NCBI GenBank assembly: GCA_963541585.1
Contig: CAUTUR010000001.1
Coordinates: forward strand, 1 to 49,667
Direction of reading: 5' to 3'
Source of the DNA: an uncultured bacterium
Lineage (GTDB): Bacteria; Patescibacteriota; Gracilibacteria; Absconditabacterales; Absconditicoccaceae
DNA: 49,667 nucleotides
The notes beneath the pieces were generated by a model. The model had not been told where the DNA came from. It was given only the letters and a program-made list of their open reading frames with translations, and did not search any database. Made by a program: the position numbers and the translations under genes. Every line of letters begins with the position of its first letter. Position 1 is the first letter of the stretch. Shown here piece after piece: positions 1 to 49,667 of this stretch.

Positions 1-502
1 CAATGAAATAGCTAATAAACTGATTAAAGCTGGTAAATGAGAATCCGTAGCTGAAAATCTTGATAAATTTGAATGACTTGATCACAATGAAATAGCTAAT
101 AAGCTGATTAAAGTTGGTAGATGAGAATCCGTAGCTAATAATCTTGATAAATTTGAATGACTTGATCACAATCAAATAGCCAATAAGCTGATTAAAGCTG
201 GAGAATGAAAAGCTGTAGCTGAGAATCTTGATAAATTTGAATGACTTGATCAGAAGACGGCGGAAATACTGATTAAAGCTAGCTATTGACGAGCTGTAGC
301 TAATAATCTTGATAAATTTAAAATTCTTAATTACAACAAGATAGCGAAAATGCTTATTGAAGCAAGAGATTCTGAATCTCTTGCTGAGAATCTTGATAAA
401 TTTAAAGATCTTGATCAAGAGATAGCGAAAATGCTTATTCAAATCGGATATGTTGAGGAAGTAAGAAAAAATATCAAGAGTTTTAAACAATCCGAGGTAT
501 AA
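1..502 (+). CDS. 3' part of a tandem-repeat protein (six 27-28 aa repeats, roughly xxIAxxLIKxGxGxxVAxNLDKFxxLD); 5' end lies outside the window
   Basis: Frame 2 is open from the window edge to TAA at 500-502 once TGA is read as Gly. The DNA has an 81-84 bp period (aatcttgataaatttgaatgacttgatcac recurs at about 56, 140 and 224). A terminator hairpin follows. Confidence 0.7.
2..499 (+). repeat. In-frame tandem coding repeats, 81-84 bp unit, about six copies
   Basis: Unit boundaries read directly at 2, 86, 170, 254, 335 and 419. TGA codons recur at equivalent positions in successive units. Confidence 0.75.
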
Positions 503-523
503 ATATTTTTTTTAACCTCAATC

Positions 524-548
524 AAACGCCACAAAAGGGCGTTTTTTC
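524..548 (+). terminator. Rho-independent terminator after the repeat-protein gene
   Basis: Stem aacgcc (525-530) pairs with ggcgtt (538-543) around loop acaaaag, running into a T-run at 542-547. It lies 22 nt after the TAA. Confidence 0.6.
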
Positions 549-823
549 TTTTATTTAAAATTGTGGGTATTATATTTTTCTAATTTTTACTCAAAAAGGT
601 TAAATGCGGAAAATATTATTATACAAATATTTTATAGATTAATTTCAAAATATTATTACTTATTTAAAAATGAAATAGGTATATAAAACTTCATTAAAAA
701 GGAAATGAATACAAATTTTGTTATACGAATCTTTTATATTGTAGAAGTTTTTTGAAAGCAATCTTTTCTTGCTTTCTGGGCACAGATAATTAGACTGGGA
801 CCAAGTTTATTCATTTCCCTGTC

Positions 824-1600
824 ATGAAAACTTCTCTCCTTGAAACCTATCTTCAAATTCCACTAGAACAGACAAAGAAATCTGATTTTTCTCCTTTTTT
901 GGAGCATCTTTTGGAGAGAATTAGAATGCATATTGCGAAACAAGGAAAAATTCTGCTCATTACTCTGACCAAAAAATCTTCTGAAGAAGTGACAAATTTT
1001 CTGATTGCGCAGGGATTTAAGGCATTTTATCTGCATAGTGAGATTGCAACGATTGATCGCCGAGAGATTATCAAGAAGTTGAAGAGTGGCGAGATTGATA
1101 TTATCGTGGGGGTAAATCTGCTCAGAGAGGGGATTGATCTGCCTGAAGTGACGCTGATTGCTGTGCTTGATGCGGATAAGGAGGGTTTTTTGAGGTCTAC
1201 GACTTCGTTGATTCAGATTATCGGTCGTGCCGCGAGAAATCCGCAAAGTGAAGTGATTCTCTATGCTGATGCCTTTACCGAATCTATGCTCAAGGCGCTT
1301 TGGGAAACCTATCGTCGTCGCTCTATTCAGGAGCAACATAATCAAAAACTCTGAATCGTTCCAGAGATTGCTTCTTCCAATGTGAAGTCTCTAGAAACAG
1401 TGAAAACTGATCTTAGTTTGGATCAGGATTTTGGATCTTTAACCAGAGGAAAGGTTAAGAAACTTAAAAGAGCAACTAAGGCAGAAAGAGAGATTATTTT
1501 GAAGGATCTTAAACTCCAGCTTGATGATGCGATTAAAGCTTGGGAATTTGAAAAAGCCGCGGTGATCCGCGACCAAATCAAAGAGATAGCAGGGGAGTAA
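824..1600 (+). CDS. uvrB: UvrB C-terminal fragment (helicase domain 2 plus UVR motif, 258 aa); the N-terminal ~400 residues of a normal UvrB are absent
   Basis: LTKKSSEEV...YLHSEI...NLLREGIDLPEVTLIAVLDADKEGFLRS..SLIQIIGRAARN are UvrB hallmark strings. TGA at 1352-1354 falls on the Gly of the conserved HN..HGI(T/V)P motif and joins track ORFs 824-1354 and 1382-1600 in one frame. The end carries the UVR motif EFEKAAVIRDQI. An in-frame TAG at 791-793 and AT-rich non-coding DNA lie upstream. Confidence 0.85.
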
Positions 1601-1629
1601 TCGTTGATTTTTTAAATATGTTTTTCTCT

Positions 1630-2127: not shown

Positions 2128-2148
2128 GATTTTTTTTAGGAAATAAAT

Positions 2149-3081
2149 TTAATTACATTGAGAGATAAGTTTTGGAATCATCCTCACAACTCCATGAAGA
2201 TTACTGATTGCACTTGTTAGATTTTCTAAAAGTTTTGTTGCTCTCGTATTGATAAGATAGTGATCTGCATATTGTTTCATTTCTTGCGACAAGAGTAAAT
2301 CAGATTTATGAATAATGAGATTTGATAGGAGATATACTTCCTTATCTATAGTTTGCTGAGTCATATTATCACAGGCTCTTTGTGCAAGAAGCATCTCTTC
2401 ACTCTGAAAATCAATAGGGAGGAGCGTCATAAGATAAATAGCACTTTGACAAAGGTTGCTATATCTGGTATTTAAGTTTCGCTCTCTATATTTTGAAAAA
2501 GGAAACCTAGTTTTTTCAATGTCTTCTATCGATTGTCTATATTCTTGGGGAGAAACTCAATTGTATGACGGAAGATGAAGAGAGGCTTGTCTCTCTCGAT
2601 TATCATGATATGTCCTTGATAGAGCAGGTGGTAAAGCTCACGCTCTTTGATGTCCTATTTGATTTGTTGTTTCCCTTCGCTCTTTAGCTTTTCCATCAAC
2701 AGGAATGTCATCATAGTTTCCATCTATATTTAATCTCCTCATCATCACATCAACTAAGTGATCAAAAAGAAAGGCTGATTCAGGGAAGTTGGTCCTATTT
2801 TTAATCAGGATACGGTCTTCTTCACAGGATTTTTTCATTATAGGATTATCATTGAGGAGATTTGAACTGCAACAGTGGCTTTTTAGGTTAATTAAAGCCC
2901 TATGAAGTCCTTCTTTTGTTAGGGGTTGTAAAGCGGGATTCCCCTTTGTTGTTGTATCAAAAAGCGTATTTTCAATCGCTTTAATTGAAGTTTCCGTAAA
3001 AAGCGCACAGTCATGGGCGGATACAAAGCTAAAGGTAATGCTTCATCAAACAAGAAATAAGAAGACAGATTTTTTTAGCAT
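2149..3081 (-). CDS. Secreted hypothetical protein, 310 aa, Cys-containing
   Basis: ATG at 3079-3081 and TAA at 2149-2151. Track ORFs 2149-2430 and 2638-2838 share this frame, and the gaps hold only TGA. N-terminus MLKKSVFLFLVGGSITFSFVSA looks like a signal peptide. Lies 67 nt downstream of the giant ORF. Confidence 0.7.
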
Positions 3082-3148: not shown

Positions 3149-6100
3149 TTATAAAGGTTTTACTTTAAATGTAATGGTAGCAAAGGATTCTTCAAAGGCA
3201 TTTTCTGAAAGAGAGTAGCTAACGGTTTTCTCTTTACTGTTAAATTGATAGCTTCATCGAAGTGGTTTGTTACTTCGAAGAGAACCATTCTTTGCAATAT
3301 AGAGTAGAGGTTCTTTATTCTTCAGGATCACTTCTCATCCATTGAAGCTACCGTAATGCTGTCCTTCTAAAGTATACAGTGTCCCTTGGGAAATCTCCTT
3401 GTTGATCAGAGCTTCTGATTGTAAGATGATTTCAAAGAGGATTTTTCAGTTTTGAATAACATTAATAACAGGATATCCTTTTGAGAAACTGACTTTTAAG
3501 TGTGTTGTTTTTTGGAAAGCAGGTTGTATTTTAATTTCTCCATTTTGTCCATTGACGGTAGCAATGAGCTTTTTGTTTTCTGTATAAAGTCCGATTAATT
3601 CTCCAAAATCATAATAAGCTCCTGTGATGGTAGTCTGATTGGTAGAAACAGGATAAGTCAGAATTTTCTTTCCATTTTGGGTAGCAGTCAAGCTTGAGTT
3701 TACACTACTTCTTTGTTTCTCAAAACTAACGTTTCCTTGATCAATATCTTTTTCTAATTCAGAAGTAATAAGCATTGGATTTTCTATACCTTCTTTCCAT
3801 CCAGAAACTTGCTGAATATGTTCGATGGTGATTTCAGGGATTTTAATACTGAGGCTTATATTTTCTACTTTTTCATTGCCTTCAGAATCTTTTGCTGAGA
3901 TCGTATAGTGTTTGGTTTGTTCTTTTGTGAAGAAGAGATCTTTTAGCCTAAGAGTTCCCTCGGAAGCATTGATCGCTTTTTTCATAATCTGTTTTTTGTT
4001 TTCTTGGATATAAGTTGTTGTTATTAAGGTATCATCAGTTCGTGTAATTTCTAGGTCATAATAGCTTCAGATATATCATTGCAGATCTAAACCTTCATCT
4101 TCTATTGCAGCTTTTCTTTTTCTAATAAGTTTTACTTTAGCGGTTGGTGGCTGATTATCTCATATAACTTGTCTTCCAGCAACGATTTGGTTCGATCGAG
4201 GAGCATTTTTTTGATATACGCGATTTTCATTTCTTAGGCTAGTGAGTTGGAGGTATTGCCATTTTCTTGGGGCTTCATGAAGACTAAATTGAAGTTTTTC
4301 TTCAGCAGGATTATAGTAAAATACTTCAGAAATCAGTTTTCAAATCTGATTTTTTACTTTAAAGGTAGATCTCTCAATTTGTAATTTTAAAGCGTTGATT
4401 TCTGTTCCCTTAGGGAGAAAGAGAAGATATTTGACTCATTCTTGATCATACTTTTCCAGCAGGCCATCTACCTTTTCTGAAATCTGCATCAGATATCCAG
4501 AAATCGCTTCATGATGATTATTCATCCAAGAAAAACTCAAACTATCAAAGCTTTGTCCCTCGAGTCTAAAGTTCTTCACTTCTGAATTCTGATCATAGAG
4601 CTTGATTTCATCACTATTCCCCCAAAGCCATCATCCTCAGAAACGTTCATATTTTTTCTCCTTATTTTTGAGCTGAGGAGTAATGACATAAAAATCTTTG
4701 AATTGTTGTCCTATTTTAGCTTCGACATCATTCGCATATTTTATATAGACATTGTGATCATCTCGAGTGATGAGTTCTGTTTTTTTATCATTATTGATAT
4801 CTTGTTGATAATACTTTGGAAATTTCTCATAATTGAGTTTTGAATGGACAACATTTACTAGATTATTCTCATGATTCTTGATAAGAACACCTTCGATATA
4901 ACTACTCATATCTGTAGTTGAGGTTTCATGGGTTGCTGGTTTTTTATTTCATATTTGAGTAAGAAGGGGTCTCTGTTCAGCATCTCCATTTTTAGTCAAA
5001 AGTGTTTGCTCTCCAGCATAGCTCTGTGTTTTTATACTATTCCATTGATTAAGTTTTGATTGAATTGATTGAAGATAGTTTTTTGAGTTTTTATAGGTTT
5101 TGTCTGACATATTTAACTCTGAAGCGCTATGAGTATTGAGAGCAAGCATATATCCATTGAGTCTTTTTGCTTCCGTAGAGATGAGTTCTTCAGTAGGATT
5201 TCTATTTATTATTGTTTTTTTAGCTTCAGTATTATCCTTCAGAAGATGAGTAGAAAAAGAAAGCTGAACTGGTTTATTTTTCGTTCATTTTTCTATGGTT
5301 TTTAAAAATTTTGTATAATCTGACTTGGCCAGTTGAGCTAGAGTACTAATCTCTTTTTGTTCATCTTTTAGGAGTCAAGAAACCTGATTTTTCATATTAA
5401 ATAATCCTGTTGTGTTTGCTGAAATTGTAGTATCTGTTCAAGCTAAAGATAAAAGTGGATCAATTTTCTTTTTTTCATAATCAGAAGAAAGAGCGTCTTG
5501 TAAAGAAGTCAGATTTCATTTTAATTTATCTTTATAGCCTACTTGAACATTAAGGTTAATAGGAGTATCTGTGGTAGTATTAAGTTTATCAGTTGTCTTA
5601 TCACTAAAATCATTTACGTTATTAGACAAAGATTCTGCTTGTGAGCTAAGATTGTAAGTACCTTGATTGATGCTATCAACCATACCCTTTAGGAGAGCGT
5701 AAAAAGCATCAAAGTTGTATTGGAGATTTACATAACTATCTACCTGAATATCTACTCATTGTAGAGGAGTTTGTTTAAAATAAGCAGTAAGATCCAAGTT
5801 GTCTACCCGAGGGACGTTATAAGTTCTTTGTGTCATTTGTTCAATTCTGGCTTTTACAGAACTTTCACCAACAAGTCCAATTCAAGATTTTATGATACAA
5901 TAAATCTTAGAAAGTTTTTTTGCAATACTTACCATACTAGTAATTTGATTTGGAAGTTCTGGAATTTTAGGAGCTGGAGGTAAAACAGGAAGCTGCATTT
6001 TTACCTGAGGAATAAAAGATGGAAGCTCAGGAAGTTCAGGTGGATTTGGTAAAAGTGGAATATCAGGAATATTGAAATCTATCTTAAAATTTACACCGAG

Positions 6101-9100
6101 TTGTGGTGGTTCTGGAAGATTTGGAAGTCTTGGTAATTCTACTGTCTCTGGAACAAAATTAAAACGAGGAAGAACAATATCCATTCCAAGATTGAGATGT
6201 GAGAGATCAATATAGAGACTTGGTATTTTTACACTAGGGATTGGAATAATCGGCAGATCTGGACAAAGGAAGCTTAATTTACAAGAATACTGATCGTAAG
6301 TATCATTCGTACATTTACCGCATTTTTTTCCTCGATCCACAAAAAGATCTACCATAACTTGATAGGTTTTTACAACGCCTAAAATAGTAATAATAGCATC
6401 TACATACTGAGTAAATCTATTCGCGTTTACTTCCATCCAATAGTTGATGTATCAGAAAAAATTAGAGAGTAAAGCTGAAATTTCTCATAAATACCTATCG
6501 GAAACATGCAGCCATTCGTAGATCTCGAGTGGGAACCTTTTATAAAGTTCCAAAACTTGAATATTTTGGTATATTTGTTCGCTTGTTTTATCAAACTTTG
6601 AAGCCATTTGAACAATCTGACTTTTTGCCTGTTCAATGAGTTTACATTCAGATTTTTTCTTTTCTTGAGTAGTTCCAGTTAGAGTAGTGAGTTCTTTTTT
6701 ACAGTTTCAAAGAGCAAGATCAATAATTGAATTCCATCCCTTTAAAGTTTCTTTGTTGCTTTCTTCCCAGGTTAGAAGGTAACTTTTGTAAGCTTCAATA
6801 TCTTCACTATAAATTCGTGGAATTTTGATATTGAGTGTCTGACTAGAAATATTAACAAGTTCTTTATCATTGAAAAAAGTCTGAAGTTTTTCAAAGGGAT
6901 TGTCTCAATTCGCAAGGTCAAGTGCTGTCAGATTCTCCTTTGAGTGAAGCTTTGTTAAGGTATTTTTTGCCAGCGTTTTGAGATTTTCTGATTTTTTAAA
7001 TTTAGAGGTAAGTTCGGAAACAGTAGTTTCTGTTTGTTTCGTTCATTCACTTGTTAGTTTTCAAAGTTCTTGAAAGTTAAAACTAGAAATCTGATTATTT
7101 AAATCGTCCATATCAGGGAGAATAACCTCTACACGGAATCTTAGGAGATTATTGATCCAATATTGCATTTGTCTATCAAATCGTCAAACAAGTTTTTTTT
7201 GTAGTCCTTGTTGCTTTCCTCAGAGAATCGCATTTTTAATATCCTTTACTCATTGAACCTTTACTCCATTGATTTCTAATCCATTTTGAGTAGCATCTAA
7301 CTGAGAAGTAATCGCATCGTAATCTATATTGATAGTTCAACCAAGATAGCTACCTTCAGCTAAACTATTTGGAATAGCATCATTCGTTAATGCTGAAGCA
7401 GTGATTTTAAATGGTGAATCACTTTGTTTGAGCTGACAGGTGTTCGTTTGACGATAATCTTCTGACCAAGGATGGTAGGTTGTACCTTCTTTATGAGAAG
7501 TAGTATCATTGGTAGTTCAGCTTTTCTTTTTTCCACAAGGCAAAGGCATTGAAGTTACAATACAATTTCCTCCAATATCTGAAAGAGGACTTGGCATGCT
7601 AATCCCTGCTGAATAAGGTCACATACAGATTGCTAATCATAATTGTGCTGTCAGTGTTGGAGCTGCATAAATCCTGATTTGAGAAGGATAAACTCCTCAT
7701 CAAGCCCAAAGGAAGCCATCTCCTGGTCATTTCAATCCCCAAGGAATAGGAATGCTTCAAACAGGAGTATACAAGGTTCCTGGAAAATGAAAAACAGGCA
7801 ATCCTTTTCCAAGAGTCCTTGTTAATGGCTCTAGTGGAATACATCCCATTAAATGATAGTTTCCAGGAGCGAGAAAGGCTTGATTGAAAGGAACTGGTAA
7901 TCCTTCACATGACTTAAGATTAGAAAAGGAAAAAGTGAATCCATTACACATTTTGTCTGCTGCATCTTGAATTGTATGTTCAATTTTTGTAAGTTCTTCA
8001 TCAAAAAGTTCTACCTTTATATTTCCAAGGTCAACATTTTCTCCGTTTTTGAGATCTGATCGCGCTCAAGAAAGAATATCTTTTACACTAAGAGTTTCCT
8101 GAACTTCATTGATTCCAGGCATATTATTTAGAGTATCGATACTCTTGGTTTCTTTTACTTTATTTTCTGCTTCTTGAGTTGCTTGTTTTTTATCATGATC
8201 AATCTCATTCATAACATTATCACTTAACTTTTGGAGATTAACAACCTTTTCTTCGTAAGTTCTTTTTTTCTTGAAGATTTCGTTCTTATTTATGAGCAAA
8301 GATTGTTGTTTATTACATCAGTCTTTGGCTGCTTGAACAATAATGTCAGGTAAGGTATCAACTCCTCCTAGTCACGATATGTTATAGTCTCTTGGATTTA
8401 TATCTTCAATTCTTATCTTAAAAAGTGGATCATCCATATGATAGGTGAGCGTATAGGTATACACAATTTGGTTATTAGCAGAGAACTGCATATTAGTTAA
8501 ATAATAGGCATAGACGTCAGTTTTTGGATTGATATCAGCTTTTCCTTCTTGAAATTGAATATCTTTTGGAGCTTGTGTTGTCTCATTTTGTTCGATAAAT
8601 CGAGGTCCTTGAATTTTATCAAAAAAAGCTGAACCAGATCCGAAAGTTCCATTTTTATTGATGATAAGAACTTCAACTTTTACTTTATCTCATTCTTCTA
8701 GGTTTCATCAGTTGATATCAGTATATCTTTTTGAAATATCTCTTACTTTGTCACTTAAAATTTTATCTGGAAGAGGAGTTTCTAGCTTATTAATAGGTAC
8801 GAAGGCCCAATTTTCCTGATCTGCAAATCATTCTAAATTTTCAAAAGGGTTTCTAACATATTTAGTAAAGATTCAAACTCCGCCCTGAGCAGTATCAACA
8901 ATATCAAAACTTTGTCCTGCATGAACAATTTCATTTTTACTGCTAGGATCTATACGTCCCTTTTCTTCAGCTCCATCTTTTACACAACTAGAAACAGAAG
9001 GAAGCCAACACATCCCATCTTCGTATGAAAGTTTTCCTTTGATTCTTTGATCATCAGTTTGACGATGTATTTCTCTATATTCTCTTGATCAGCAGAGCGG

Positions 9101-25636: not shown

Positions 25637-25700
25637 ATAAAATCAGTTGCTTTCTGCTATTTGAAAAGTATACTGATTCAGATTTATTTTTAGCAAAAAA

Positions 25701-26609: not shown

Positions 26610-26611
26610 TA

Positions 26612-27379
26612 ATGTCTACCTACCTCTGACAAAATTTCCTCAAAGATAGTTCTATCATTAGCTTTATTGCTGATGCTATTCAAAAGCTGTATCAAAGTTC
26701 TGAAGCAGAGGTTTTACTAGAAATTTGACCTTGAAAATGAGCAATTACAAAAAAAATTAAACAGATTTCTCCCTCTTTTTTTGTTATAGAAAAAGATACT
26801 ACGATGAAAGATCATTTGATGACTATTGGTTTAGAGGAATCGCAGATTATTTTTTGAGATGTATTGGAAACGGATATTACTTGATTTCTTCAGAATATTT
26901 GAAAAGTGGAAAATCAGGCTCTTGTCGTTTGAAATCTCCCTTATTATATCACTTCTCCGATCTTTAAACATCTTTTTTGGAAAGAGAATCCAGAATTGCT
27001 GGGAGGATTTTTTATGATTCAAGATGAAGTAGGACAAAAAATTAAATCTGATGCGAAGAAAAAATCATATCTTCGATGGCTTGTGAATAGAGCCTATCAG
27101 GTAGATTACGTAAAAATGGTCCCAGCAAAATGTTTTTCTCCAGCTCCAAAGGTAAAAAGTTGTTTGGTAAGATTTACAAAAAAGGAAAAGAAAGAAGCTA
27201 TAGATCCAAACAAACTAGAAGCATTTTTGAATCTCTTTTCTCCCTATAGCAGAAAAACACTATGAAAAATTAGCAAAATGAATGAAAAAAAATGAAAAAA
27301 CTGATTTTCAATCCCTTCTGAACTTCAAGGAAAAAGACTTGAAGAGCTAGATTGGGAAAGCCTGAAAATAATTTTATAG
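26612..27379 (+). CDS. rsmA: 16S rRNA (adenine1518/1519-N6)-dimethyltransferase RsmA/KsgA, 255 aa
   Basis: LGQNFL and EIGPGKGAIT (three Gly = TGA at 26726, 26732, 26738), VGNLPYYITSPI, FSPAPKVKS. TAG at 27377-27379. The start could instead be a slightly upstream TTG. Confidence 0.85.
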
Positions 27380-35170: not shown

Positions 35171-35303
35171 CATCTCTTAGAAAAGATAAACGATACTGAT
35201 AGTAAGGTTCCATTTCTTTTTTTCAAGAAAGATTGCATTTTTCTTATCAAAAGGATTTTAACATAAAATTTTCTAAAAAGAGTCATAATTTTTTTTCAAT
35301 ATC

Positions 35304-35331
35304 TTGCTTTTTTAGAAAAAATTGATATAAT
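35304..35331 (+). promoter_or_regulatory. Candidate sigma70-type promoter for the ATPase gene
   Basis: TTGCTT (35304-35309), 16-nt spacer, then extended -10 TGATATAAT (35323-35331), 37 nt upstream of the ATG at 35368. Confidence 0.35.
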
Positions 35332-35367
35332 AAAAGTATCTTATTTCAAAAAACAAAAATCTGAGCA

Positions 35368-39856: not shown

Positions 39857-40102
39857 GATAAATAGAGATATAAGATAATAATTTCGTGTAAAGATATATA
39901 TTTCTTCAAGAAAGTCAAATAATTAAAAAATAAAAAAACACTTTCACATGTTTTCATTATTACGAAAATTATCTGAATAAAAGATACATTCTTTCTCTTA
40001 ATTCCTCTAAAAAATATTAGGATTCCTTTTTTATTCTTTCCTTGCAATCTTCTTTGACTTTACTATAAGGAAGTGTTTTATTTCGCGCAGAACCACTTAA
40101 AT

Positions 40103-41998
40103 ATGACCAAGAAAAAAAATCTGATCCTAAGCTATAAATGGCGGATTTACGGACTTCTTTTTATTGTCCTGATCTCTGTTGGACTAAGACTGCTCCAAAA
40201 TAATAGTCTAATTTCCACTTTTTGAGTCAATACCGGAACGGTTCAGGTTATTGAGGACAATGAAGAACTTTCCCTCAACCAATGGTTAGAGCAGTATCAT
40301 AAAGGAACTTTTCAGAAGATTTCGCTTACCAATGATGAAGAATTAAAAGGTTTTGAACTGATAAAAAAAGGCAAAGAAAGCTTCTTTACCAAGGAATACG
40401 AAACCGAAACCTACAAAAGCTACGAAACCAAGAAATCTCCTTCTCTGAGCTTGATTGATCTTGGGGTGGCTTTGACCTGAGATATTGAGCTTGCGATCGT
40501 GCATGAGGAGCCTTCACTGTGGACGAAACTCTTTGAGCAGGTGGGCTATCTGATTTTTTTCCTAATTATTCTGGTGATTGGGATGAAATTTATTATGCCA
40601 AAGGGCGGAGCTGGAGGGATGCTCGGAATTAAAGTAGGAAAAGAAAGCAAAAAATCTGAATCAAAAACCAGATTTACCGACATTGCAGGGATGGACGAGG
40701 TCAAGAACGAACTGATTGAAATCGTAGATTACCTCAAAGAGCCTGAAAAATATCAAAAAATCGGTGCCAGACCACCAAAGGGAGTCTTGCTCTATGGGGC
40801 TCCAGGATCAGGGAAGACCTTGCTTGCGAGAGCGGTAGCAGGGGAGGCTGGAGTCGCTTTTTTTTCAGCTTCTGGATCTGAATTTATGGAAATGCTCGTT
40901 GGAATGGGAGCTGCGAAGGTGAGAAAACTCTTTGAACAAGCCAAATCCGCTGGGAAAGCGATCATTTTTATTGATGAGATTGATGCGATCGGGAAAAAGA
41001 GAGGATCGGGCTATACCGGAGGGCATCAGGAGCAGGAACAAACGCTCAACCAAATTCTGACAGAAATGGATGGTTTTGATAAAAATACGAATATCATCGT
41101 GATGGCTGCGACCAATAGGCCTGATACCTTGGATCCTGCCTTACTCAGAGCCGGAAGATTTGATAGAAAGGTCTTTGTTTCCGTGCCAACTTTGGAGGAA
41201 AGAATTCAGATTTTTGAATATTACCTTAAATCCAAAAAAGTCGATGAAAAGGTCAATCTTGAATCGCTTGCGAAAAGAACGAGCGGTTTGGTTGGTGCAG
41301 ATATTGAAAATGTCGTGAATGAGGCTGCTTTACAAGTTGCAAAATCCAATAGAGAAGTGCTAGAAGCGAAAGATTTTGAATACGCACTTGAGAAAGTAAT
41401 TATGGGACCTGAGAAAAAAGTAAAATCTATGAAAGAAAAAGAGAAAAAGCTCGTTGCCTACCACGAACTTGGACATGCCGTGACCGGACATCTCTTGGAA
41501 AACGCAGATCCGATTGAGAAAATCTCGATTGTTCGTAGAGGGCATGCTTTAGGAGTGACCTGGACGACTCCAGAAGAGGACAAAAACCTCTATTCCAAGG
41601 CAAAATTCCTTGATGAAGTGGTAACTTTGCTCGGAGGAAGAGCAGCAGAGGAGTTGTTTTTTGGGAAAGAGGAGATCACCACTGGTGCTTCTAATGATTT
41701 TGAAAGAGCGACCACTATTATCAAAAATATGATTCTCAAATATGGTATGGATGAAGATTTTGGACCAATCAACTACCTCAAAGAAGGCGAGGATCAGCCT
41801 TTTATCAATCCTTATAGCGAACAGACCGCACAGCTCGTAGATGAAAAGATCAAAAACTATCTTGCTAATGCTTACAAAAAAGCAAAAAAAATTCTGAAAG
41901 ATCACGAAGTTCTGATTCATCAAATGGCAGGAGTCCTTTTAGAGAAAGAATATCTTTCTAGCGAGGAATTCTCTGAAATGATGAAAGAATCTTCATAA
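40103..41998 (+). CDS. ftsH: ATP-dependent zinc metalloprotease FtsH, 631 aa
   Basis: GVLLYGAPGSGKTLLARAVAGEAGV, IIFIDEIDA and the HEXXH motif YHELGHAV. Two TM segments lie upstream of track ORF 40499-41998, joined through 2 TGA to the ATG at 40103. Confidence 0.95.
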
Positions 41999-42050: not shown

Positions 42051-42881
42051 ATGACCATCGTATTAGATTATTTCTTCAATAAAAACCTCAAAATCCTTAA
42101 TATCCCTGATGAGATAAGTAAAGACTTAAAACATGGAGATAAAATTTCATATTTTTTGGAAGAAAAATGAACAGAAAAAGAATCAATTGGAACCGTACTT
42201 TGATATACTATACCAATCGAAGAGAGGACTGCTCAATTTTCCAAAAAATTAAATCCTGAAGAAAATAGTGATTTTCTCAAACAACAGGAATTTGCACTCA
42301 AGCTTTTTCCTTTATTTAAAAAAAAATTCAAGGCTGCATTCCCTGGATCTAAACCTATTACAGCAAGATATAACCCTTTAATGGATCAGCTTTATTTTTA
42401 TTTCTATTCTGAAGAAAGATATGTTTTTAGTGATTTCGTAAGGGAACTTAAACAAGAAATCGGAAAAAATATTTTTCTTTTCCAGGTCGGAGCAAGAGAT
42501 ATGATGAGGCTAGACCCTAACTCAAAAGCGTATGCTGTAGGTGCTGATTGTGGAATGGAATTTGCATGCCAAGGGCTCGGTCCTTTGCCAAGTGTAGAGG
42601 TTGAATCCATTGCCATGCAAGGACTTGAAGGAAGAGATATTGAAAGATTAAAGTGAAGATGTGGAAAATTAAAATGTAGCTTGCTCTATGAATTGGAAAT
42701 TTATATGAAAGAATACAAGGATTTCCCACAAAAAGGATCAAAAATTCAATGTCCATGATCAAATCAAAAATGAGTTGTAAGTTCATATAATATCATTACA
42801 AAAGAAGTTGTTATCAGAACAGAGGAGTGATGAGTACTCAGAGTTCCTCTTGCTCTTCTCAAAGAAGAAAAAGAAAGATAA
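42051..42881 (+). CDS. PSP1 domain protein (YaaT/RicT-like), 276 aa
   Basis: LYFYFYSEERYVFSDFVRELKQEIGKNIFLFQVGARD...GRCGKLKCSLLYE follows the PSP1 C-terminal pattern (the CGRL.CCL.YE equivalent). Same frame as track ORF 42381-42656. TAA at 42879-42881. Confidence 0.75.
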
Positions 42882-42888
42882 AAAATTG

Positions 42889-43845
42889 ATGCTTTTATTT
42901 ATTATGACGATTTGTATGTGAACTAAAGTTTTGATTTATTTTCGAATGGCCCTCAGCATTGCACTTGTTGTAATTCCTTGCGGAATTGTTTTTTACTGGT
43001 TGTGAAAGAAAATTTCTACTTATTTTAGACAAAAGGCTCAGCTCATAAAAGAAAATAAAGAGCTTAAACATATAAAAACTGAACTCCAAGAACAAAAAGA
43101 AGAGTTTATCACCAATAGTGAATACGGACCTTTTGTTGCATCACAGGAAACAGAAAATAAAATCCTAGATGAGCAATCTTCTTGAGATGAGGAAACAAGC
43201 TCTTGATCAAAAGATACTGATGAGCTAGTTCCAGAACTTCTAAAACAATCTGAAGAACATCAAAATATCGCAGAAAAAGAGAAAAAAAGACTTGATACCC
43301 TCTTACTTGAAGCTGAACTATTGAAAAATGAGGGGAAAGTAGAACAATATGAAAAAAAACTGATTGAAGCAACTACGATTGATGATATGGAGCTGAGAGT
43401 TTTAAAGCCCCTTGCAGATCTTTATTTTACGCTTGGAAACTACAAAAAATCACTTCCATTGCTCAAGAAAATTTCTGAACAAGATCCTACTGATCACAAA
43501 GTGATTTGGCAGATTGCAGAGATCTATTTTGTTACGGGAGATATTCAGACTGCCGAACTGTTAGTAGAAAAAGCAATCAATCTGAAAAATGATAATCCAA
43601 AATACTATCTTACCATGGTGGAAATCTATTATAATACGGATAGAAATTCGGAAGCTCTCGCTTATATGGAAAAAGTTATTAAACTCAGACCGACTAATCC
43701 GAAATACCTACTTGCGACTGCCGAACTTTATGAACAATCAGGAGATTTAGACAATGCTAAGAAATACTATTTCAATGTCCTAGAATACGAACAAAATAAC
43801 GAAAAAGCTAAGGCAAAAATCAGAGAGTTTACAAGAGAACTATAA
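42889..43845 (+). CDS. Membrane-anchored TPR-repeat protein, 318 aa
   Basis: N-terminal hydrophobic segments, an acidic linker, then TPR-like repeats (LADLYFTLGNYKKSLPLLKKISEQDP, IAEIYFVTGDIQTAELLVEKAINL, and others). Same frame as track ORF 43321-43845. Confidence 0.7.
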
Positions 43846-43885: not shown

Positions 43886-44350
43886 ATGCTAATCACGAAT
43901 AGAAACAAGCCCCTATTAGCTATAAATGATATTGTATGTTTTAAGGTAATGGTGAAACGGGAAAATGCTTATTTTATTTGTCCTCCAGCTTTTCAGTATT
44001 TTTTAGCCAATAAAATTAAACTAGAGCCCTATTATTTAAATAAAACGTATGAAACAGAATTAACAAATCCTAATGCTGATTATAGAATTGATGGAGTGAT
44101 TTGAAAATGATTTTATCATACTTTTTGTGACATAACTTCAGCACAAAAATTTGTTAATTATTTGACAAATAAAATTAATAATCCTGATTTAGAATTATAT
44201 CAGATTCCTTTTGATGCTGAACTTGTAATTTTAGAAGCCCTTATTCCAAAATTTGCACTTTATTATCAATGAAGATACAAAGAATTAGAAGGGATGAAAA
44301 CGTATGCTTCAAATAAAGTTCTTTATTCTGCTGTATCCCTCTGATCTTAA
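43886..44350 (+). CDS. Hypothetical protein, 154 aa
   Basis: Track ORF 43886-44104 continues through 4 in-frame TGA to TAA at 44348-44350. No family recognised. Confidence 0.55.
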
Positions 44351-44379
44351 AAAACACTTTTATCCGTAAAAAATAAGTA

Positions 44380-45273
44380 ATGAAACTAACCCTCGTAATC
44401 CTCGCCGCAGGAATGGGAAGCCGTTATGGAGGCTTGAAACAGCTTGATATCTTTGGAGCAGGGGAGCATGCCTTGATGGAATACTCCGTTTTTGATGCGA
44501 AAAAAGCTGGATTTGAAAAGGTCGTTTTTGTGATTAGAAAAGACTTTGAAACAGAATTTAAAAGCAGAATCGGTTCAAGGATTGAACAGGAAATAGAGGT
44601 CAGCTATGCCTTCCAAGATATGCATGAACTTCCAGCAGGTTTCATCTGCCCATCGACGAGAGAAAAACCTTGGGGAACCGGACATGCCGTCCTTGCTGCC
44701 AAAGATCTGATTGATGGACCTTTTGCCGTGATCAATGCTGATGATTTTTATGGAAGGGAAAGTTATCAGGGCTTGGCTGACTTTTTGAAGACTCATGAGC
44801 AAAACTGTATCGTCGGCTACCAACTTTCAGAGGTGCTTTCAGACTTTGGAACGGTGTCTAGAGGAATGTGCGAGCTTGATGAAAATAATAATCTCAAAGC
44901 GATCCATGAAACTAAAAAAATCTTCAAATCAGAAGGAAAAATCCTTGCTGAAAACCCTGATGGAACGACTTATGAACTCAATCCTCAGGACCTCTGTTCT
45001 ATGAATATGATGGGATTTACCAAAGCAAGTCTTGAATTTTACGAAAAATACTTCATTGATTTTTTAGAAAAGAATCTCAACGAACCAAAAACTGAATTTT
45101 ATATGCCAGAAGTTATCACGAGACTGATTAACGAGGAAGGACAATCTGTTCCTGTTTTACCGACTACTGCGAAATGGTTTGGAGTGACTTACCAGGAAGA
45201 TAAAGAAGCAACAAGTAAAAATATTGATGCTTTGATTGCAGATGGAAAGTATCCAAAACACTTACGAAACTAG
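44380..45273 (+). CDS. Sugar-phosphate nucleotidyltransferase family protein, 297 aa
   Basis: Intact track ORF. N-terminal LVILAAGMGSRYGGLKQLD is the NTP-transferase G-loop. Confidence 0.8.
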   Translation: MKLTLVILAAGMGSRYGGLKQLDIFGAGEHALMEYSVFDAKKAGFEKVVFVIRKDFETEFKSRIGSRIEQEIEVSYAFQDMHELPAGFICPSTREKPWGTGHAVLAAKDLIDGPFAVINADDFYGRESYQGLADFLKTHEQNCIVGYQLSEVLSDFGTVSRGMCELDENNNLKAIHETKKIFKSEGKILAENPDGTTYELNPQDLCSMNMMGFTKASLEFYEKYFIDFLEKNLNEPKTEFYMPEVITRLINEEGQSVPVLPTTAKWFGVTYQEDKEATSKNIDALIADGKYPKHLRN

Positions 45274-45322: not shown

Positions 45323-46636
45323 ATGAAAAAAATCTGATTTTTACTGTTACTTTTGCTTCTTCCTTCTTCAACTTTTGCTTTTGTGCTAGGGCTAAAATCC
45401 ACAGATAATACCGTGGAAAATATTGTAAAAATTGAAAAAGACTATAATCTTTATCTCCCTTTAATCGGGTTTATTTATGATCCCCGAGAGAGACAAAATG
45501 TTATTCAAGAGTTGGAAAATATGCATCAAAAACTCTGAAATAAGAGAATTTACCATATTTCAGTTTCTCCAAATCAGTTTTCTGCTCAAGAAGTTGCTGA
45601 TGGAGCTTTTGATAGAGAGTATACTCTTTTTTTTCAAACGATAAAAAGGCTTAAACTCAAGGTTATTTTCAGGACAATGCATGAAATGAATGGTGGTTGG
45701 TATCCACGAGGATCAAATCCTGAAAATTTCAAAAAAGCCTGGATTCATGTATGGAATCTTTCACGTTCTCTTGGATTAGATCAAAAGGATATTCTTTTTG
45801 ATTTTTCTGTGAATCACCGGGATATGCCAACTCTCTGAAAACCTTCTCAACAAGCAAAACTCATTCAGTGTAAACCTGATAAAAAATGTCATCATTTTGA
45901 GGACTATTTTCCAGGAGAAGCCTATGTAGATATTATAGGAGTAACCTTTTATAACCGATGAAAAGCTACAAGTAATAGACTTTGGAAAAATCCATGACAA
46001 ATTTTGAATGATCCTGAATGGAAAACCTTAGAGAGATTAAAATCCCTTTGAAAACCTTTATTTATTGACGAAGTTTGAACAACAGCAGTCTGGTATGATG
46101 AGAAATATTCTTCAAAAACCTCAAGAGCATCTTTCCTTACTCCTGAATCTGATACGAGAAAAAATCAATGGTTAAAAGAACTTAGTGCATTATTAAAAGT
46201 AAATCATTTTCTAGGAGCGGTATATTTCAATGTAGATTATACGAATGGATTAACGCTTCCTTCAGTTTGAGAGGCAGATCGAGCAATTATCAATACGACA
46301 ATTGATAAATTTTACGATGGTTTTTGGGATCTTTATAGTAGTTCAAAATCAGATTTTTCTTCCTTATTAGCTTTATTTTGACTAAAAATGGTTGAAGTTA
46401 ATGGAGATGAAAGATTTGTATCTCAAAAAGCAGCAAAAGATTTAAAATTCATTGAAACCCTTGTGAACGAAAAAATTACTGATCCAAAAGAAAAATCAGA
46501 TCTTTATAAGAAATTATGAACTACTCCAAGCGGAAAGAAAAGTTTTGATGAGGCAATTCAAGTTCTAAAAGAAGAGTATACTTTTTCTCCAGTGCAAACA
46601 GGATGAACAATCACTGGAGCTTCTATTGGTGTCTAA
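45323..46636 (+). CDS. Secreted glycoside hydrolase, GH26-like, 437 aa
   Basis: Signal peptide MKKIGFLLLLLLLPSSTFA. FRTMHEMNGGWYPRG resembles the GH26 catalytic-acid region (HE.NG.W). Many in-frame TGA. Same frame as track ORF 45353-45538. TAA at 46634-46636. Confidence 0.6.
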
Positions 46637-46642
46637 ATCTCC

Positions 46643-47950
46643 TTATTTCTTTTCGATATCTCTGAGTAAAGCTTGTTTTTCTATCTCAAGCTTATTGATT
46701 TTTTTCTCGAGTTGAAGGACCTCTTCTGGCATCGTATCAAGACTCATTTTTACATTAGCAGATGCTTCATCTAGTAAATCAATCGCCTTATCAGGAAGTT
46801 TACGATCTGAGAGATATCTTCTTGAAAGATCTACCGCAGCAATAACAGCATCATCAGTGATTTTTACACCATGATGAGTCTCATAAGCTTTTTTGATTCC
46901 ACGAAGAATTGAAAGTGCATCTTCTCTACTAGGTTCATTAACCATAACCGGTTGAAACCTTCTTTCTAATGCTCAATCTTTTTCAATATAAAGGCGATAT
47001 TCATTCAATGTCGTAGCTCCAATAATTCTTACTTGTCCCCTAGCAAGTGCAGGTTTGAGCATATTTCCCATATCCATAGATCCTTCTGTTTTTCCAGCTC
47101 AAACGACCGTATGGAGTTCATCAATAAATAAGATGATTTGCCCTTCAGATTTTTCTACTTCTTTAAGAATAGCTTTCAATCTCTCTTCAAAATCTCATCT
47201 ATACTTACTTCATGCCATCAGAGCGCCCATATCAAGCTCAATAATTTTTTTATCCTTCAAAAGATCAGGAACTTCTCATTTAATAATTTGCTGAGCAAGG
47301 AGTTCAATAATCGCAGTCTTTCATACCCCAGGTTCTCATACAAGAACTGGATTGTTTTTTGTCCTACGAGAAAGAATCTGCAAAACCCTTCTCAATTCTT
47401 CATCTCTTCCAATTACAGGATCGAGTTTCCCTTTTTCAGCGAGAAGCGTAATATCTTTCCCATATTTAGATAAAACTTCAAGACTGACCTCAGGATCATT
47501 GGTTTCAACTTTTTCTCCATTTCTGATTTGAAGAATAGTATTTTTTGCCATAGTATAATCAATATCAAACTTTTCAAGAAGTTTTTTTACCGTATTTTCT
47601 ATTTTTACAAGTGCAAGGAAAAAATGCTCAGTCGTAATGTACAGATCTCCCAAATCCTTCATTTCTTGTTCACTTTGCTCCAAAATAGCATTAAGATCTG
47701 AACCAATTCCAATTTGGTTTGCTCACTGAATTTTAGGAAGTTGATCCAAGAGAAGAATAGTTTCAGCTTTCAACTGCTCCAAATTTTTTCAGAGTTTTTT
47801 GATAATTACAGGGAGATAACCGTCAGTTTGTTCGATCATTGCAAAGAACAAATGTTCAGGTAAAATCTGACTATTCCCTCTATTTGAACACAGACTATTG
47901 GCTTCCTGAATCGCCTCGCTTGCTTTAATGGTAAGTTTATTAAAGTTCAT
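46643..47950 (-). CDS. clpB: ClpB/ClpC-type chaperone truncated after NBD1 and the first part of the M-domain, 435 aa; NBD2 absent
   Basis: Clp N-domain repeats. Walker A VGEPGVGKTAI with both Gly = TGA (47336, 47321). [19 protein letters not shown] and ERRFQPV. It ends at a genuine TAA (46643-46645) inside the coiled-coil ([22 protein letters not shown]). Frame checked across the gaps between and upstream of track ORFs 46643-46945 and 47336-47683, up to the ATG at 47948-47950. Confidence 0.85.
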
Positions 47951-47972
47951 TTTTTCTTGTCTTAGAAAATAA

Positions 47973-47999
47973 ATAGCACTTAATTATATACAGTGCTAT
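47973..47999. promoter_or_regulatory. CIRCE-like inverted repeat (candidate HrcA operator) upstream of clpB
   Basis: ATAGCACTT-N9-CAGTGCTAT against the consensus TTAGCACTC-N9-GAGTGCTAA (7 of 9 per arm, exact 9-nt spacer). Lies 23-49 nt upstream of the clpB ATG. Confidence 0.55.
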
Positions 48000-48342
48000 G
48001 ATAAAGAAAAAAATCTGAATTTCAAGATCATTTTCTTAATTAAATCAGTTTTTACTTAAGCCATTCCTTCAAAAAAAACAATGTTAAAAACTTGTTAAAA
48101 AGTTAAAAGAAAAACCAATTCTGAACTGAATTTTCTCTTGCATTTGGTTCAGAGTTTTTTATTATCTTTCCTAGAAAAATCCTGCTTTGTAATAAAGGAG
48201 GTATTCAATCAAGTTGTCATTCTGAATGAAATGAAGAATCTAAATTATCTCCTTCGCTCAGGAAGACATTTGAAGGGTATTTCTCCTTTTTTAACAGAAG
48301 GAATTATTCTCTTGAAAAGCTTTATTTTATCTTTTTCAATCC

Positions 48343-49667
48343 ATGGCTATAGAAAATATCAATCTTCCTCCTCATAATATTGAAGCAGAAAAGGGCGTAA
48401 TTAGCTGAGTTTTACTAGATAATGAAACGATGTGGATTTATGACAGTGATAAACTGGGATACAAGGATTTTTATCAAAAGGAGCATGGATTCATTTACGA
48501 GGCGATTCAGCAGCTTTGGACTGCAAGAAAGACGATAGATGTCGTTACCGTTTCTGATCAGCTTTCAAAAAATGGAAATCTGGATGTAATCGGAGGAACG
48601 GACTATCTTTACGAGCTTTCTACCTTCCTTTTCTCTACTCAGCCTTGCTGAGAATATAGCAAAATCGTGAGAGAAAAATCGCTCTTGAGGCAGGTTTTGA
48701 AAGTCTGTCAGGGAATCTCAGGTGAAGTCTATGAACAAAAAGACACAATTCAGATTTTTGATGCTATTGAAAAGAAAATCTTTGACCTTACGCAAAACCA
48801 AGTCGGAGACAGCATTATTTCTATTGGAGATATTCTGAAAGGGAGAATAGAGGAGTATATGGAAATCGTGGACAACCCTGAGAAATTCAACGAAAAGAAG
48901 GTAATGTCCGGCTATAAGGGGATTGATGGGATGCTGACGGGATTTAAGCCGTGAGAACTGATTATTCTCGCTGCAAGGCCTTCCATGGGTAAGACTTCTT
49001 TTGCCCTCAATGTGCTGACCGATATTGCTCTCAAACAAAAAAAATCTGCCGTGATGATTTCGCTGGAGATGAGCTCAGAATCTATCGTTGATAGGATTGT
49101 GTCGGAGGTTTCTAGCGTTCCGATGTATAAAATCACCAAAGGCGACCTAGATAATGAGGACTTTGCGAAAATGGGGGAGGCGATGGAAGTCCTTGGAGAA
49201 GCTCAGATTTATATTGATGATAAGGGGGCTTTGACCGTTCCAGAACTCAAATCTAAACTCAGAAAATTAAAAATAGAAAAAGGCTGACTAGATATTGTGA
49301 TCATTGATTACCTCCAACTGATGCATGGAACGGTCTTCGTTGGGAATAGAGTCCAAGAGATTTCCGAGATCTCAAGAGGGCTTAAAGAGCTTGCAAGGGA
49401 GCTTGAAGTGCCAATTATCGCACTTTCTCAGCTCTCTCGTGCGGTAGAGCAGAGGGTAGACAAGAAGCCACAACTTTCCGACCTGAGAGAATCAGGAGCG
49501 ATTGAGCAAGATGCTGATGCGGTTTTGATGCTCCATAGAGAAGACTACTACGATCCTGACACGGATAAAAAAGGTGCAACCGATGTCTGCATCAGAAAAA
49601 ACAGAAACTGAGCGGTAGGGGAGGTTGAGCTGCATTTTGAGAAAGAAATTATGAGATTCACCGAAAG
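48343..49667 (+). CDS. dnaB: Replicative DNA helicase DnaB; 3' end lies outside the window
   Basis: [13 protein letters not shown] at the N-terminus. Walker [22 protein letters not shown] with the first Gly = TGA at 48952-48954. [14 protein letters not shown] and [14 protein letters not shown]. Track ORFs 48430, 48667, 48985 and 49297 share the frame of the ATG at 48343. Confidence 0.95.

What the first reader, a model, noticed from the sequence alone, without database searches (positions are those of the whole stretch)
1..49667. TGA is a sense codon for glycine across the whole window (genetic code 25)
Under the standard code nearly every gene is shattered. Under TGA = Gly the pieces join in frame, and every gene ends in TAA or TAG.

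TGA lands on invariant glycines:
- ClpB Walker A V-G-EPGV-G-KT (47336, 47321).
- Dna[17 protein letters not shown] (48952).
- Coupling-protein-like Walker A GKT-G-TGKST (36325).
- HolB II-G-PE-G-IGKT (25797, 25806).
- RsmA EI-G-P-G-K-G (26726, 26732, 26738).
- UvrB HNxx-G-I (1352).

Trp at conserved positions (NWD in the DUF285 repeats, VEMYQW) is still TGG, so this is not the Mollicutes code 4. This places the source in a Gracilibacteria/Absconditabacteria-like lineage, and any annotation made with table 11 will be badly wrong.
Basis: partly seen in the sequence, partly recalled or inferred. Interest (0 to 1): 0.6.

Follow-up and report, generated by a model that had tools for sequence, protein, structure and literature searches.

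The report
UGA-glycine code, plus CGA/CGG-tryptophan

Summary
With TGA read as sense, 27 genes cover 95.6% of the window. They hold 296 in-frame TGA and no in-frame TAA or TAG, and all 26 complete genes end in TAA or TAG.

TGA means glycine, not tryptophan:
- Against solved structures, 20 of 34 aligned TGA sit on Gly and 1 on Trp.
- Against a standard-code genome of the same class, 51 of 85 sit on Gly and none on Trp.
- Against SR1 HOT-345, 225 of 304 changed sites are GGN.

The genome has a tRNA(UCA) with the full glycine identity set. It has RF1 only. None of the 17 genomes of the genus has RF2.

They exchange with TGG and never with other arginine codons. They sit on invariant Trp in GH26 and in the DUF285 repeats. 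tRNA(UCG) and tRNA(CCG) carry Trp-type features. So table 25 also mistranslates this window.

Both changes are already published (Campbell 2013; Rinke 2013; Shulgina and Eddy 2021). This scan has reported the same on at least 46 other genomes. The result is ordinary but useful for annotation.

In passing: clpB and uvrB are each split into two distant genes across the genus.

The parts
2..502 (+). 5'-truncated gene for a 28-aa-repeat protein; 7 TGA, 1 CGA
   Evidence: TGA recurs at the same two repeat positions (K-x-ES and FE-x-LD) in successive repeats.
824..1600 (+). uvrB C-terminal part (258 aa); 1 TGA (1352), 1 CGA (1061)
   Evidence: Pfam Helicase_C, UvrB and UVR. TGA 1352 aligns to the G of KHGIVP in Bacillus caldotenax UvrB, and the CGA aligns to Ile. 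The N-terminal part is encoded on contig C6.
1630..2127 (-). pilin-like gene, 165 aa; 6 TGA, 1 CGA
2149..3081 (-). hypothetical gene, 310 aa; 4 TGA, 3 CGA
3149..16243 (-). giant gene, 4364 aa; 111 TGA, 27 CGA/CGG, no TAA or TAG
   Evidence: At four CGA/CGG sites with orthologues, relatives have TGG or the same codon.
16512..17474 (-). RhuM-family gene; 5 TGA, 1 CGG
17501..20065 (-). type III restriction res gene; 4 TGA
   Evidence: No DNA match in the 16 other genomes of the genus.
20078..21982 (-). DNA methylase (mod) gene; 4 TGA
22068..22484 (-). hypothetical gene, 138 aa; 4 TGA, 1 CGA
22468..23151 (-). HTH + Panacea (SocA-like) gene; 5 TGA, 3 CGA
23310..24158 (-). hypothetical gene, 282 aa; 9 TGA, 1 CGG
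24265..25578 (+). TMEM43-family gene; 7 TGA, 1 CGA inside a hydrophobic stretch (25453)
   Evidence: A relative has TGG at the CGA site. The W of VEMYQW is TGG.
25647..26609 (+). holB (DNA polymerase III delta'); 9 TGA, 2 CGA
   Evidence: TGA 25797 and 25806 align to the two G of the P-loop GPPGVGKT in RFC, and 'gkpx' aligns to GSPG in E. coli delta'. Relatives have GGN or TGA there. Both CGA sites are TGG, CGA or CGG in relatives.
26528..27379 (+). rsmA/ksgA; 11 TGA, 1 CGA
   Evidence: TGA aligns to the G of GQNFL and to the three G of EIGPGIGALT in B. subtilis KsgA. Relatives have GGN or TGA. The CGA site (27074) is TGG in 8 of 10 relatives.
27398..28693 (-). CNNM/CorC-family transporter gene; 5 TGA, 3 CGA
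   Evidence: Two TGA align to G in the 7m1u chain. The CGA codons align to F and to R. In relatives they are TGG, CGA, CGG or hydrophobic codons, never Arg codons.
28795..33462 (-). DUF285-repeat surface protein gene, 1555 aa; 36 TGA, 5 CGA/CGG
   Evidence: In the 25-aa repeats the invariant Trp is TGG 13 times and CGG once (32887). The MF-x-G-A position alternates TGA and GGN.
33557..35173 (-). beta-propeller-like gene, 538 aa; 10 TGA, 1 CGA
35233..38268 (+). HerA/FtsK/coupling-protein-like ATPase gene with S1 domain; 6 TGA, 5 CGA/CGG
   Evidence: The Walker A TGA (36325) is TGA in 8, GGT in 4 and GGA in 1 relative. Four of the five CGA/CGG sites show TGG in relatives.
38393..39856 (-). hypothetical gene, 487 aa; 10 TGA, 2 CGA
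40073..41998 (+). ftsH; 2 TGA, 1 CGG
   Evidence: All 80 FtsH orthologues carry in-frame TGA, and 78 of them were aligned. 77% of the weight opposite TGA falls on Gly. In the same alignment CGA/CGG align to W, L and F, not to R or K.
42051..42881 (+). PSP1-like gene; 7 TGA
42808..43845 (+). TPR gene; 4 TGA, 1 CGA
   Evidence: The CGA site is TGG in 7 of 8 relatives.
43886..44350 (+). hypothetical gene, 154 aa; 4 TGA, 1 CGG
44380..45273 (+). nucleotidyl-transferase gene; the only gene with no TGA; 1 CGA
   Evidence: Its orthologues in six genomes of the genus carry 1 to 17 in-frame TGA, so it is not a standard-code island. Its CGA is TGG in relatives.
45323..46636 (+). GH26-like gene; 11 TGA, 5 CGA/CGG
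   Evidence: HEMNGGWYP[CGA]G aligns to HEANGDWYPWA, and YN[CGA][TGA] aligns to YNWG, in C. thermocellum Lic26A.
46643..47950 (-). clpB N-terminal half (N-domain, NBD1, start of M-domain); 9 TGA
   Evidence: 8 of the 9 TGA align to Gly in M. tuberculosis and E. coli ClpB, including both G of the Walker A GEPGVGKT. One aligns to Ala. The other half of clpB is on contig C5.
48343..49665 (+). dnaB (3' end runs off the window); 5 TGA
   Evidence: The TGA align to A, E, S, a gap and G in Geobacillus DnaB.

Best explanation
The window belongs to a genome of about 0.93 Mb and 33% G+C. It is an Absconditabacteria (SR1) bacterium of the same genus as SR1 bacterium human oral taxon HOT-345. Its genetic code differs from the standard one at three codons.

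(1) UGA is glycine. A dedicated tRNA(UCA) that carries the bacterial glycine identity set is presumably charged by GlyRS and reads UGA. Release factor 2, which would stop at UGA, is absent. RF1 ends every gene at UAA or UAG.

(2) CGA and CGG are tryptophan. tRNA(UCG) and tRNA(CCG) have lost the arginine determinant A20. They carry the Trp-type discriminator G73 and an A/G1:U72 pair. tRNA(UCG) lies 20 nt downstream of tRNA-Trp(CCA). Arginine is left to AGA, AGG, CGU and CGC.

Shown here by computation: the codon-to-residue correspondence, the tRNA genes and their identity features, and the release-factor inventory. Inferred: the actual charging of these tRNAs and the residue inserted in vivo.
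For: Frames:
- 27 genes cover 95.6% of the window with 296 in-frame TGA and 0 in-frame TAA or TAG.

TGA = Gly:
- Solved structures, TGA masked as X: 20 of 34 aligned TGA fall on Gly and 1 on Trp.
- G014, a same-class genome with the standard code (1 TGA in 15,239 aligned codons): 51 of 85 on Gly and 0 on Trp, against a Gly background of 6.7%.
- G007 = HOT-345, 65,331 aligned codons: 623 TGA pair with TGA 319 times, GGN 225 times and TGG 5 times.
- Window sites: among 90 TGA sites where relatives differ, GGN is the commonest alternative at 53 and TGG at 0.
- Clade: 1292 TGA in 78 FtsH orthologues, with 77% of the weight on Gly.
- tRNA(UCA) at C49:2574-2647 has G1:C72, C2:G71, G3:C70 and U73. 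These are the criteria of PMC8629427. It matches Rfam tRNA, not tRNA-Sec.
- The prfB model scores below cut-off in 0 of 17 genus genomes and only hits the RF1 gene. That RF1 has PDT and GGQ motifs and itself holds a TGA in ES-x-VHRVQR.

CGA/CGG = Trp:
- Against G007, 240 CGA pair with CGA 148 times, TGG 56, CGG 9 and Arg codons 0. The 40 CGG pair with CGG 15 times, TGG 13, CGA 5 and Arg codons 0. The 472 TGG pair with CGA 73 times and CGG 26.
- Against G014, 20 of 45 CGA fall on Trp and 0 on Arg, against a Trp background of 1.0%.
- All other 59 sense codons give their standard residue.
- Window sites: TGG is the commonest alternative at 16 of 23 variable CGA/CGG sites, and Arg codons at 0.
- Two GH26 CGA codons sit on invariant Trp.
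- The Trp position of the DUF285 repeat is TGG 13 times and CGG once.
- tRNA(UCG) and tRNA(CCG) have G73, U20 and G1:U72 or A1:U72. tRNA GCG, UCU and CCU have A20 and A73.
Against: - There is no protein-level evidence, so charging and decoding are inferred.
- The genome is 90% complete, so the absence of RF2 in this one assembly is not proof. The 16 other genomes of the genus support it.
- 14 of 34 structure-aligned TGA are not on Gly. They are on A, S, Q, E, L, F, N or W, mostly at variable positions.
- Against distant structures, five of seven aligned CGA fall on I, F, S, K or R. At three of those sites (HolB 123, RsmA 183, CorC 150) relatives have TGG.
- CGG counts are small: 11 in the window and 4 aligned to G014.
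- Relatives are not independent of each other, so pair counts overstate the number of events.
Confidence: 0.93

Rival explanations
1. Plain NCBI table 25: UGA is Gly, but CGA and CGG are still arginine. Their pairing with TGG would then reflect real Arg/Trp replacements.
For: Against distant structures a few CGA align to K or R (HolB residue 123; CorC residue 150). ARAGORN labels the two tRNAs 'Arg' from their anticodons.
Against: None of 280 G000 CGA/CGG codons pairs with AGA, AGG, CGT or CGC in HOT-345, while 69 pair with TGG. Against the standard-code genome the score is 0 Arg to 20 Trp. The tRNAs lack A20 and have G73. CGA and CGG occupy invariant Trp in GH26 and DUF285.
Confidence: 0.05
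2. UGA is tryptophan, as in Mycoplasma (table 4).
For: Table 4 also opens the frames. One TGA in a weakly aligned GH26 stretch falls on Trp.
Against: 0 of 85 TGA fall on Trp against G014. 5 of 623 pair with TGG against HOT-345. The tRNA(UCA) has U73 and G1:C72, whereas the genome's tRNA-Trp has G73 and A1:U72.
Confidence: 0.01
3. The in-frame TGA are not ordinary sense codons. They would be selenocysteine sites, programmed read-through, sequencing errors or pseudogenes.
For: ARAGORN names the tRNA(UCA) 'SeC' because of its anticodon.
Against: - There are 296 TGA in 26 of 27 genes, at the frequency expected for an unavoided codon.
- The tRNA is 74 nt with a normal 7/5 cloverleaf and a short variable arm, and it matches Rfam tRNA.
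- TGA aligns to Gly, not to Cys or Sec.
- The same sites are TGA or GGN in 16 other genomes.
Confidence: 0.01

Closest known systems
NCBI translation table 25 (candidate division SR1 and Gracilibacteria code). Campbell et al. 2013 PNAS and Rinke et al. 2013 Nature, as cited in PMC8629427, PMC4032931 and PMC13695967.
   Same: UGA is read as Gly. There is a tRNA-Gly(UCA) with G1:C72, C2:G71, G3:C70 and U73. RF2 is absent, the genome is small and G+C is low. The lineage is the same: the genus of SR1 HOT-345.
   Different: Table 25 keeps CGA and CGG as Arg, and this genome does not. Table 25 would therefore put Arg at 68 window positions that are most likely Trp.
Absconditabacteria code predicted by Codetta (Shulgina and Eddy 2021, eLife 10:e71402, PMC8629427): UGA to Gly plus CGA and CGG to Trp.
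   Same: - The same three codons are affected.
- tRNA(UCG) and tRNA(CCG) have G73 and lack A20. tRNA(GCG) keeps arginine identity.
- Codon use is within the reported range. In conserved genes CGA is about 37, CGG about 6 and TGG about 72 per 10,000 codons.
   Different: Nothing of substance. The evidence here comes from other methods: codon exchange between orthologues, a standard-code relative, solved structures and internal repeats. The paper used Pfam column inference. No NCBI table number exists for this code, to my knowledge.
NCBI table 4 (Mycoplasma/Spiroplasma: UGA = Trp).
   Same: UGA is a sense codon, RF2 is lost, and the genome is AT-rich and reduced.
   Different: The residue is Gly, not Trp. 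The tRNA(UCA) derives from and resembles tRNA-Gly, not tRNA-Trp.

Membership tests
Code 25 (UGA = Gly) | Abundant in-frame TGA, with genes restored when TGA is read as sense and ended by TAA or TAG only | tested here: met
   296 TGA and 0 TAA or TAG in 15,806 codons. Stops are 19 TAA and 7 TAG.
Code 25 (UGA = Gly) | TGA aligns to glycine in homologues from standard-code organisms | tested here: met
   20 of 34 against solved structures. 51 of 85 against G014, with a Gly background of 6.7%.
Code 25 (UGA = Gly) | tRNA with anticodon UCA carrying G1:C72, C2:G71, G3:C70 and U73 | tested here: met
   Found at C49:2574-2647. The criteria are those of PMC8629427.
Code 25 (UGA = Gly) | RF2 (prfB) absent and RF1 present | tested here: met
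   The prfB model hits only the prfA gene: 200+68 bits against 324+121 bits for the prfA model. 0 of 17 genus genomes pass the prfB cut-off. The RF1 has PDT and GGQ motifs. The genome is 90% complete.
Code 25 (UGA = Gly) | Glycine is actually inserted at UGA (proteomics or aminoacylation) | not testable with these tools
Campbell et al. 2013 is not held in the library.
Absconditabacteria CGA/CGG = Trp (Shulgina and Eddy 2021) | CGA and CGG align to Trp, not Arg | tested here: met
   Against G014: 20 of 45 CGA on Trp and 0 on Arg. Against HOT-345: 69 TGG and 0 Arg codons. GH26 and DUF285 show invariant Trp at these codons. The CGG counts are small.
Absconditabacteria CGA/CGG = Trp (Shulgina and Eddy 2021) | tRNA(UCG) and tRNA(CCG) with G73 and without A20 | tested here: met
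   Both have G73, U20 and G1:U72 or A1:U72. tRNA GCG, UCU and CCU have A20 and A73 (read by hand from the sequences).
Absconditabacteria CGA/CGG = Trp (Shulgina and Eddy 2021) | Tryptophan is inserted in vivo | not testable with these tools
   The source paper also states that only experiment can establish this.
Code 4 (UGA = Trp) | TGA aligns to Trp, and the tRNA(UCA) is of Trp type | tested here: not met
   0 of 85 on Trp. The tRNA(UCA) has U73 and G1:C72.
Selenocysteine recoding | tRNA-Sec architecture (long variable arm, 8/5 or 9/4 acceptor/T stems), with rare TGA at Cys/Sec positions | tested here: not met
   The tRNA is 74 nt with a 7/5 cloverleaf. It scores 62.7 bits on Rfam RF00005, and the clan competition kept tRNA, not tRNA-Sec. 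TGA occurs at 18.7 per 1000 codons.

The most novel reading that the evidence does not exclude
The organism's working code has three changes (UGA = Gly; CGA and CGG = Trp). To my knowledge this code has no NCBI table, and only computation supports the CGA/CGG part. In this genome CGA and CGG supply about 37% of Trp codons in conserved genes. The genus lives in the mammalian mouth, so metaproteomics of plaque samples could give the first direct proof. TGA use also varies strongly between genes, from 0% to 69% of Gly codons. That may reflect expression-linked avoidance of a slow or error-prone tRNA-Gly(UCA) that can wobble onto UGG.
Probability: 0.3. Interest if true: 0.35.

Novelty: already known. 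Interest (0 to 1): 0.15.

Why it matters
The value is practical. Any annotation of this contig with table 11 breaks 26 of its 27 genes. Table 4 puts Trp at 296 glycine positions. Even table 25 puts Arg at 68 positions that are most likely Trp, including catalytic-site and repeat-motif tryptophans. Downstream work on this window (the giant surface protein, the adhesin, the ATPase, the split clpB) should use TGA=G, CGA=W and CGG=W.

Scientifically, the result adds an independent, non-Pfam confirmation of the Codetta prediction in one more genus. It does not open a new question.

Tried and rejected
- Code 4, selenocysteine and read-through were rejected (see the rival explanations).
- The only TGA-free gene (44380-45273) could have been a 'standard-code' island, as earlier notes of this scan describe in other genomes. 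It is not. Its orthologues in six genomes of the genus carry 1 to 17 TGA, and its CGA is TGG in relatives.
- CGA might be preferred at the most conserved Trp positions, to escape misreading of UGG by tRNA-Gly(UCA). This is not supported. Against G014, 44% of CGA sites are Trp, compared with 58% of TGG sites.
- A scan of all 64 codons for further reassignments found none beyond TGA, CGA and CGG.
- Solved structures alone are weak for CGA: 2 W, 1 F, 1 I, 1 S, 1 K and 1 R.
- Campbell et al. 2013 (PMC3619370) is not held and is cited only through other papers.
- My first regular expression for the DUF285 repeat found nothing. It was redone.

Full report
**Observation**

Under table 11 the window has only 3 ORFs of 300 aa or more, the longest 646 aa. 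With TGA read as sense it has 21, including a 4364-aa gene. A set of 27 non-redundant genes covers 95.6% of the window. Their 15,806 codons hold 296 in-frame TGA, about the 292 expected if the codon is not avoided. They hold no TAA or TAG, where about 880 would be expected. The 26 complete genes end in TAA (19) or TAG (7).

**Which residue**

I masked TGA as X and aligned window proteins to solved structures from standard-code organisms.

| Protein | Residues opposite TGA |
|---|---|
| ClpB-N | 8 Gly (both G of the Walker A GEPGVGKT) and 1 Ala |
| RsmA | G of GQNFL, three G of EIGPGIGALT, then Q, S, F, A, L |
| HolB | two P-loop G, one further G, two variable sites |
| UvrB | G of KHGIVP |
| CorC | G, G |
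| GH26 | G, W, N, A (weak alignment) |
| DnaB | G, A, E, S and a gap |

The total is 20 Gly of 34 aligned, with 1 Trp. Relatives have TGA or GCN there.

**Evidence at DNA level**

The whole assembly (926 kb, 67 contigs, 90% complete) was laid in the Python box. The nearest named relative is SR1 bacterium human oral taxon HOT-345, phylum Candidatus Absconditibacteriota. Its FtsH is 89% identical. Handle G007 is that genome: its contig of 863,952 bases matches MPSQ01000001.

Over 189 orthologous stretches (65,331 codons, 81% amino-acid identity), the 623 TGA of this genome pair with TGA 319 times, GGN 225 times and TGG 5 times.

G014 is a genome the tool places in the same class. It has 46% G+C and only one in-frame TGA in 15,239 aligned codons, so it uses the standard code. 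Against it, 51 of 85 TGA fall on Gly and none on Trp, with a Gly background of 6.7%.

Within the window, 128 TGA sites in 15 genes have aligned orthologue codons. Where relatives differ, GGN is the commonest alternative at 53 sites and TGG at none. All 80 FtsH orthologues of the clade carry in-frame TGA. In the 78 that were aligned, 77% of the weight opposite TGA falls on Gly.

**Machinery**

- ARAGORN finds one tRNA with anticodon UCA (C49:2574-2647). It labels it 'SeC' only because of the anticodon.
- That tRNA is a 74-nt standard cloverleaf with G1:C72, C2:G71, G3:C70 and U73. This is the glycine set used by Shulgina and Eddy (PMC8629427). It shares the set with the genome's tRNA-Gly(UCC). 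Rfam scores it as tRNA, not tRNA-Sec.
- The prfB model hits only one gene, which the prfA model scores higher. That gene is cut by a contig break: C54 and C18 overlap by 17 identical residues.
- This RF1 has PDT and GGQ motifs. It holds a TGA at the Gly of ES-G-VHRVQR.
- None of the 17 genomes of the genus has a prfB match over the cut-off.

PMC8629427 predicts that Absconditabacteria also read CGA and CGG as Trp. I tested this in the present genome.

- *Against HOT-345.* The 240 CGA pair with CGA 148 times, TGG 56 times, CGG 9 times and never with AGA, AGG, CGT or CGC. The 40 CGG pair with CGG 15 times, TGG 13 times and CGA 5 times, and never with those Arg codons. The 472 TGG pair with CGA 73 times and CGG 26 times.
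- *Against standard-code G014.* 20 of 45 CGA fall on Trp and none on Arg, with a Trp background of 1.0%. In G014 itself, CGA and CGG pair with this genome's AGA and AGG.
- *All-codon table.* Only TGA, CGA and CGG depart from the standard residue.
- *Window sites.* The window holds 57 CGA and 11 CGG in frame. Of 23 sites where relatives differ, TGG is the commonest alternative at 16 and an Arg codon at none.
- *Conserved positions.* HEMNGGWYP[CGA]G aligns to HEANGDWYPWA, and YN[CGA][TGA] aligns to YNWG, in C. thermocellum Lic26A. The invariant Trp of the DUF285 repeat is TGG 13 times and CGG once, at 32887.
- *tRNAs.* tRNA(UCG) lies at C5:4978-5049, 20 nt after tRNA-Trp(CCA). tRNA(CCG) lies at C2:8730-8800. 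Both have G73, U20 and G1:U72 or A1:U72. tRNA GCG, UCU and CCU keep A20 and A73.

**Is the whole window recoded?**

One gene (44380-45273) has no TGA. Its orthologues in six genomes of the genus have 1 to 17 TGA, and its single CGA is TGG in relatives. So it is an ordinary recoded gene. TGA supplies 31% of Gly codons in the window but 15% in conserved genes genome-wide. The share per gene runs from 0% to 69%.

**Comparison and verdict**

UGA = Gly in SR1 and Gracilibacteria has been known since 2013 and is NCBI table 25 (PMC8629427, PMC4032931, PMC13695967). CGA/CGG = Trp was predicted in 2021 and, as that paper says, still awaits experiment. Codon frequencies here lie within the reported range. 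This scan has reported the same on at least 46 other genomes. The finding is correct, useful for annotation and not new.

**In passing**

clpB and uvrB are each encoded as two genes far apart. This holds in this genome and in HOT-345, G001 and G004. clpB is whole in G014 and G019. uvrB is whole in G019, while in G014 it appears as two abutting matches at one locus.

Noticed in passing
window 46643-47950 (-), with G000 contig C5:16237-17520: clpB is split into two genes at distant loci. The window encodes model positions 1-429 (N-domain, NBD1, first part of the M-domain) and ends at a real TAA. Positions 431-853 are on contig C5. The same split is seen in HOT-345 (the halves lie 230 kb apart on one contig), G001 and G004. 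G014 and G019 have an intact clpB. So it is a conserved split gene, not a truncation or a misassembly.
   Followed up: partly
window 824-1600 (+), with G000 contig C6:19442-20941: uvrB is split likewise. The window encodes only positions 418-657 (helicase domain 3 and the UVR domain). Positions 2-383 and a small piece (381-441) are on contig C6. The arrangement is the same in HOT-345 (the parts lie about 375 kb apart), G001 and G004. The gene is intact in G019.
   Followed up: partly
G000 contig C5:4886-5049 (outside the window): tRNA-Trp(CCA) is followed after 20 nt by the Trp-like tRNA(UCG). This suggests that the CGA-reading tRNA arose by tandem duplication of tRNA-Trp.
   Followed up: partly
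window 17501-21982 (-): The type III res and mod genes have no DNA match in any of the 16 other genomes of the genus. They use TGA for only about 12% of Gly codons. They look like a strain-specific, probably recently acquired, defence module.
   Followed up: no
window 44380-45273 (+): The nucleotidyl-transferase gene is 93% identical in DNA to its HOT-345 orthologue, while its neighbours are 72-85% identical. It has 40% G+C against 33% for the window, and no TGA in this genome.
   Followed up: partly
window 2-502 (+): A 5'-truncated gene encodes 28-residue repeats (NEIANKLIKAGxGESVAENLDKFEGLDH). TGA sits at the same two positions of successive repeats. No Pfam family matches.
   Followed up: no
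G000 contigs C54:3-800 and C18:18494-18808: The prfA (RF1) gene is cut by an assembly break. The two contig ends overlap by 17 identical residues (PSGLIVNIGDSKSQMQN) and could be joined.
   Followed up: yes
G014 and G019 (same class, other families): These genomes, which the tool places in the same class, show no in-frame TGA in clpB, clpC or uvrB. G014 reads CGA and CGG as Arg. Standard-code and recoded lineages therefore sit side by side at class level in this taxonomy.
   Followed up: partly
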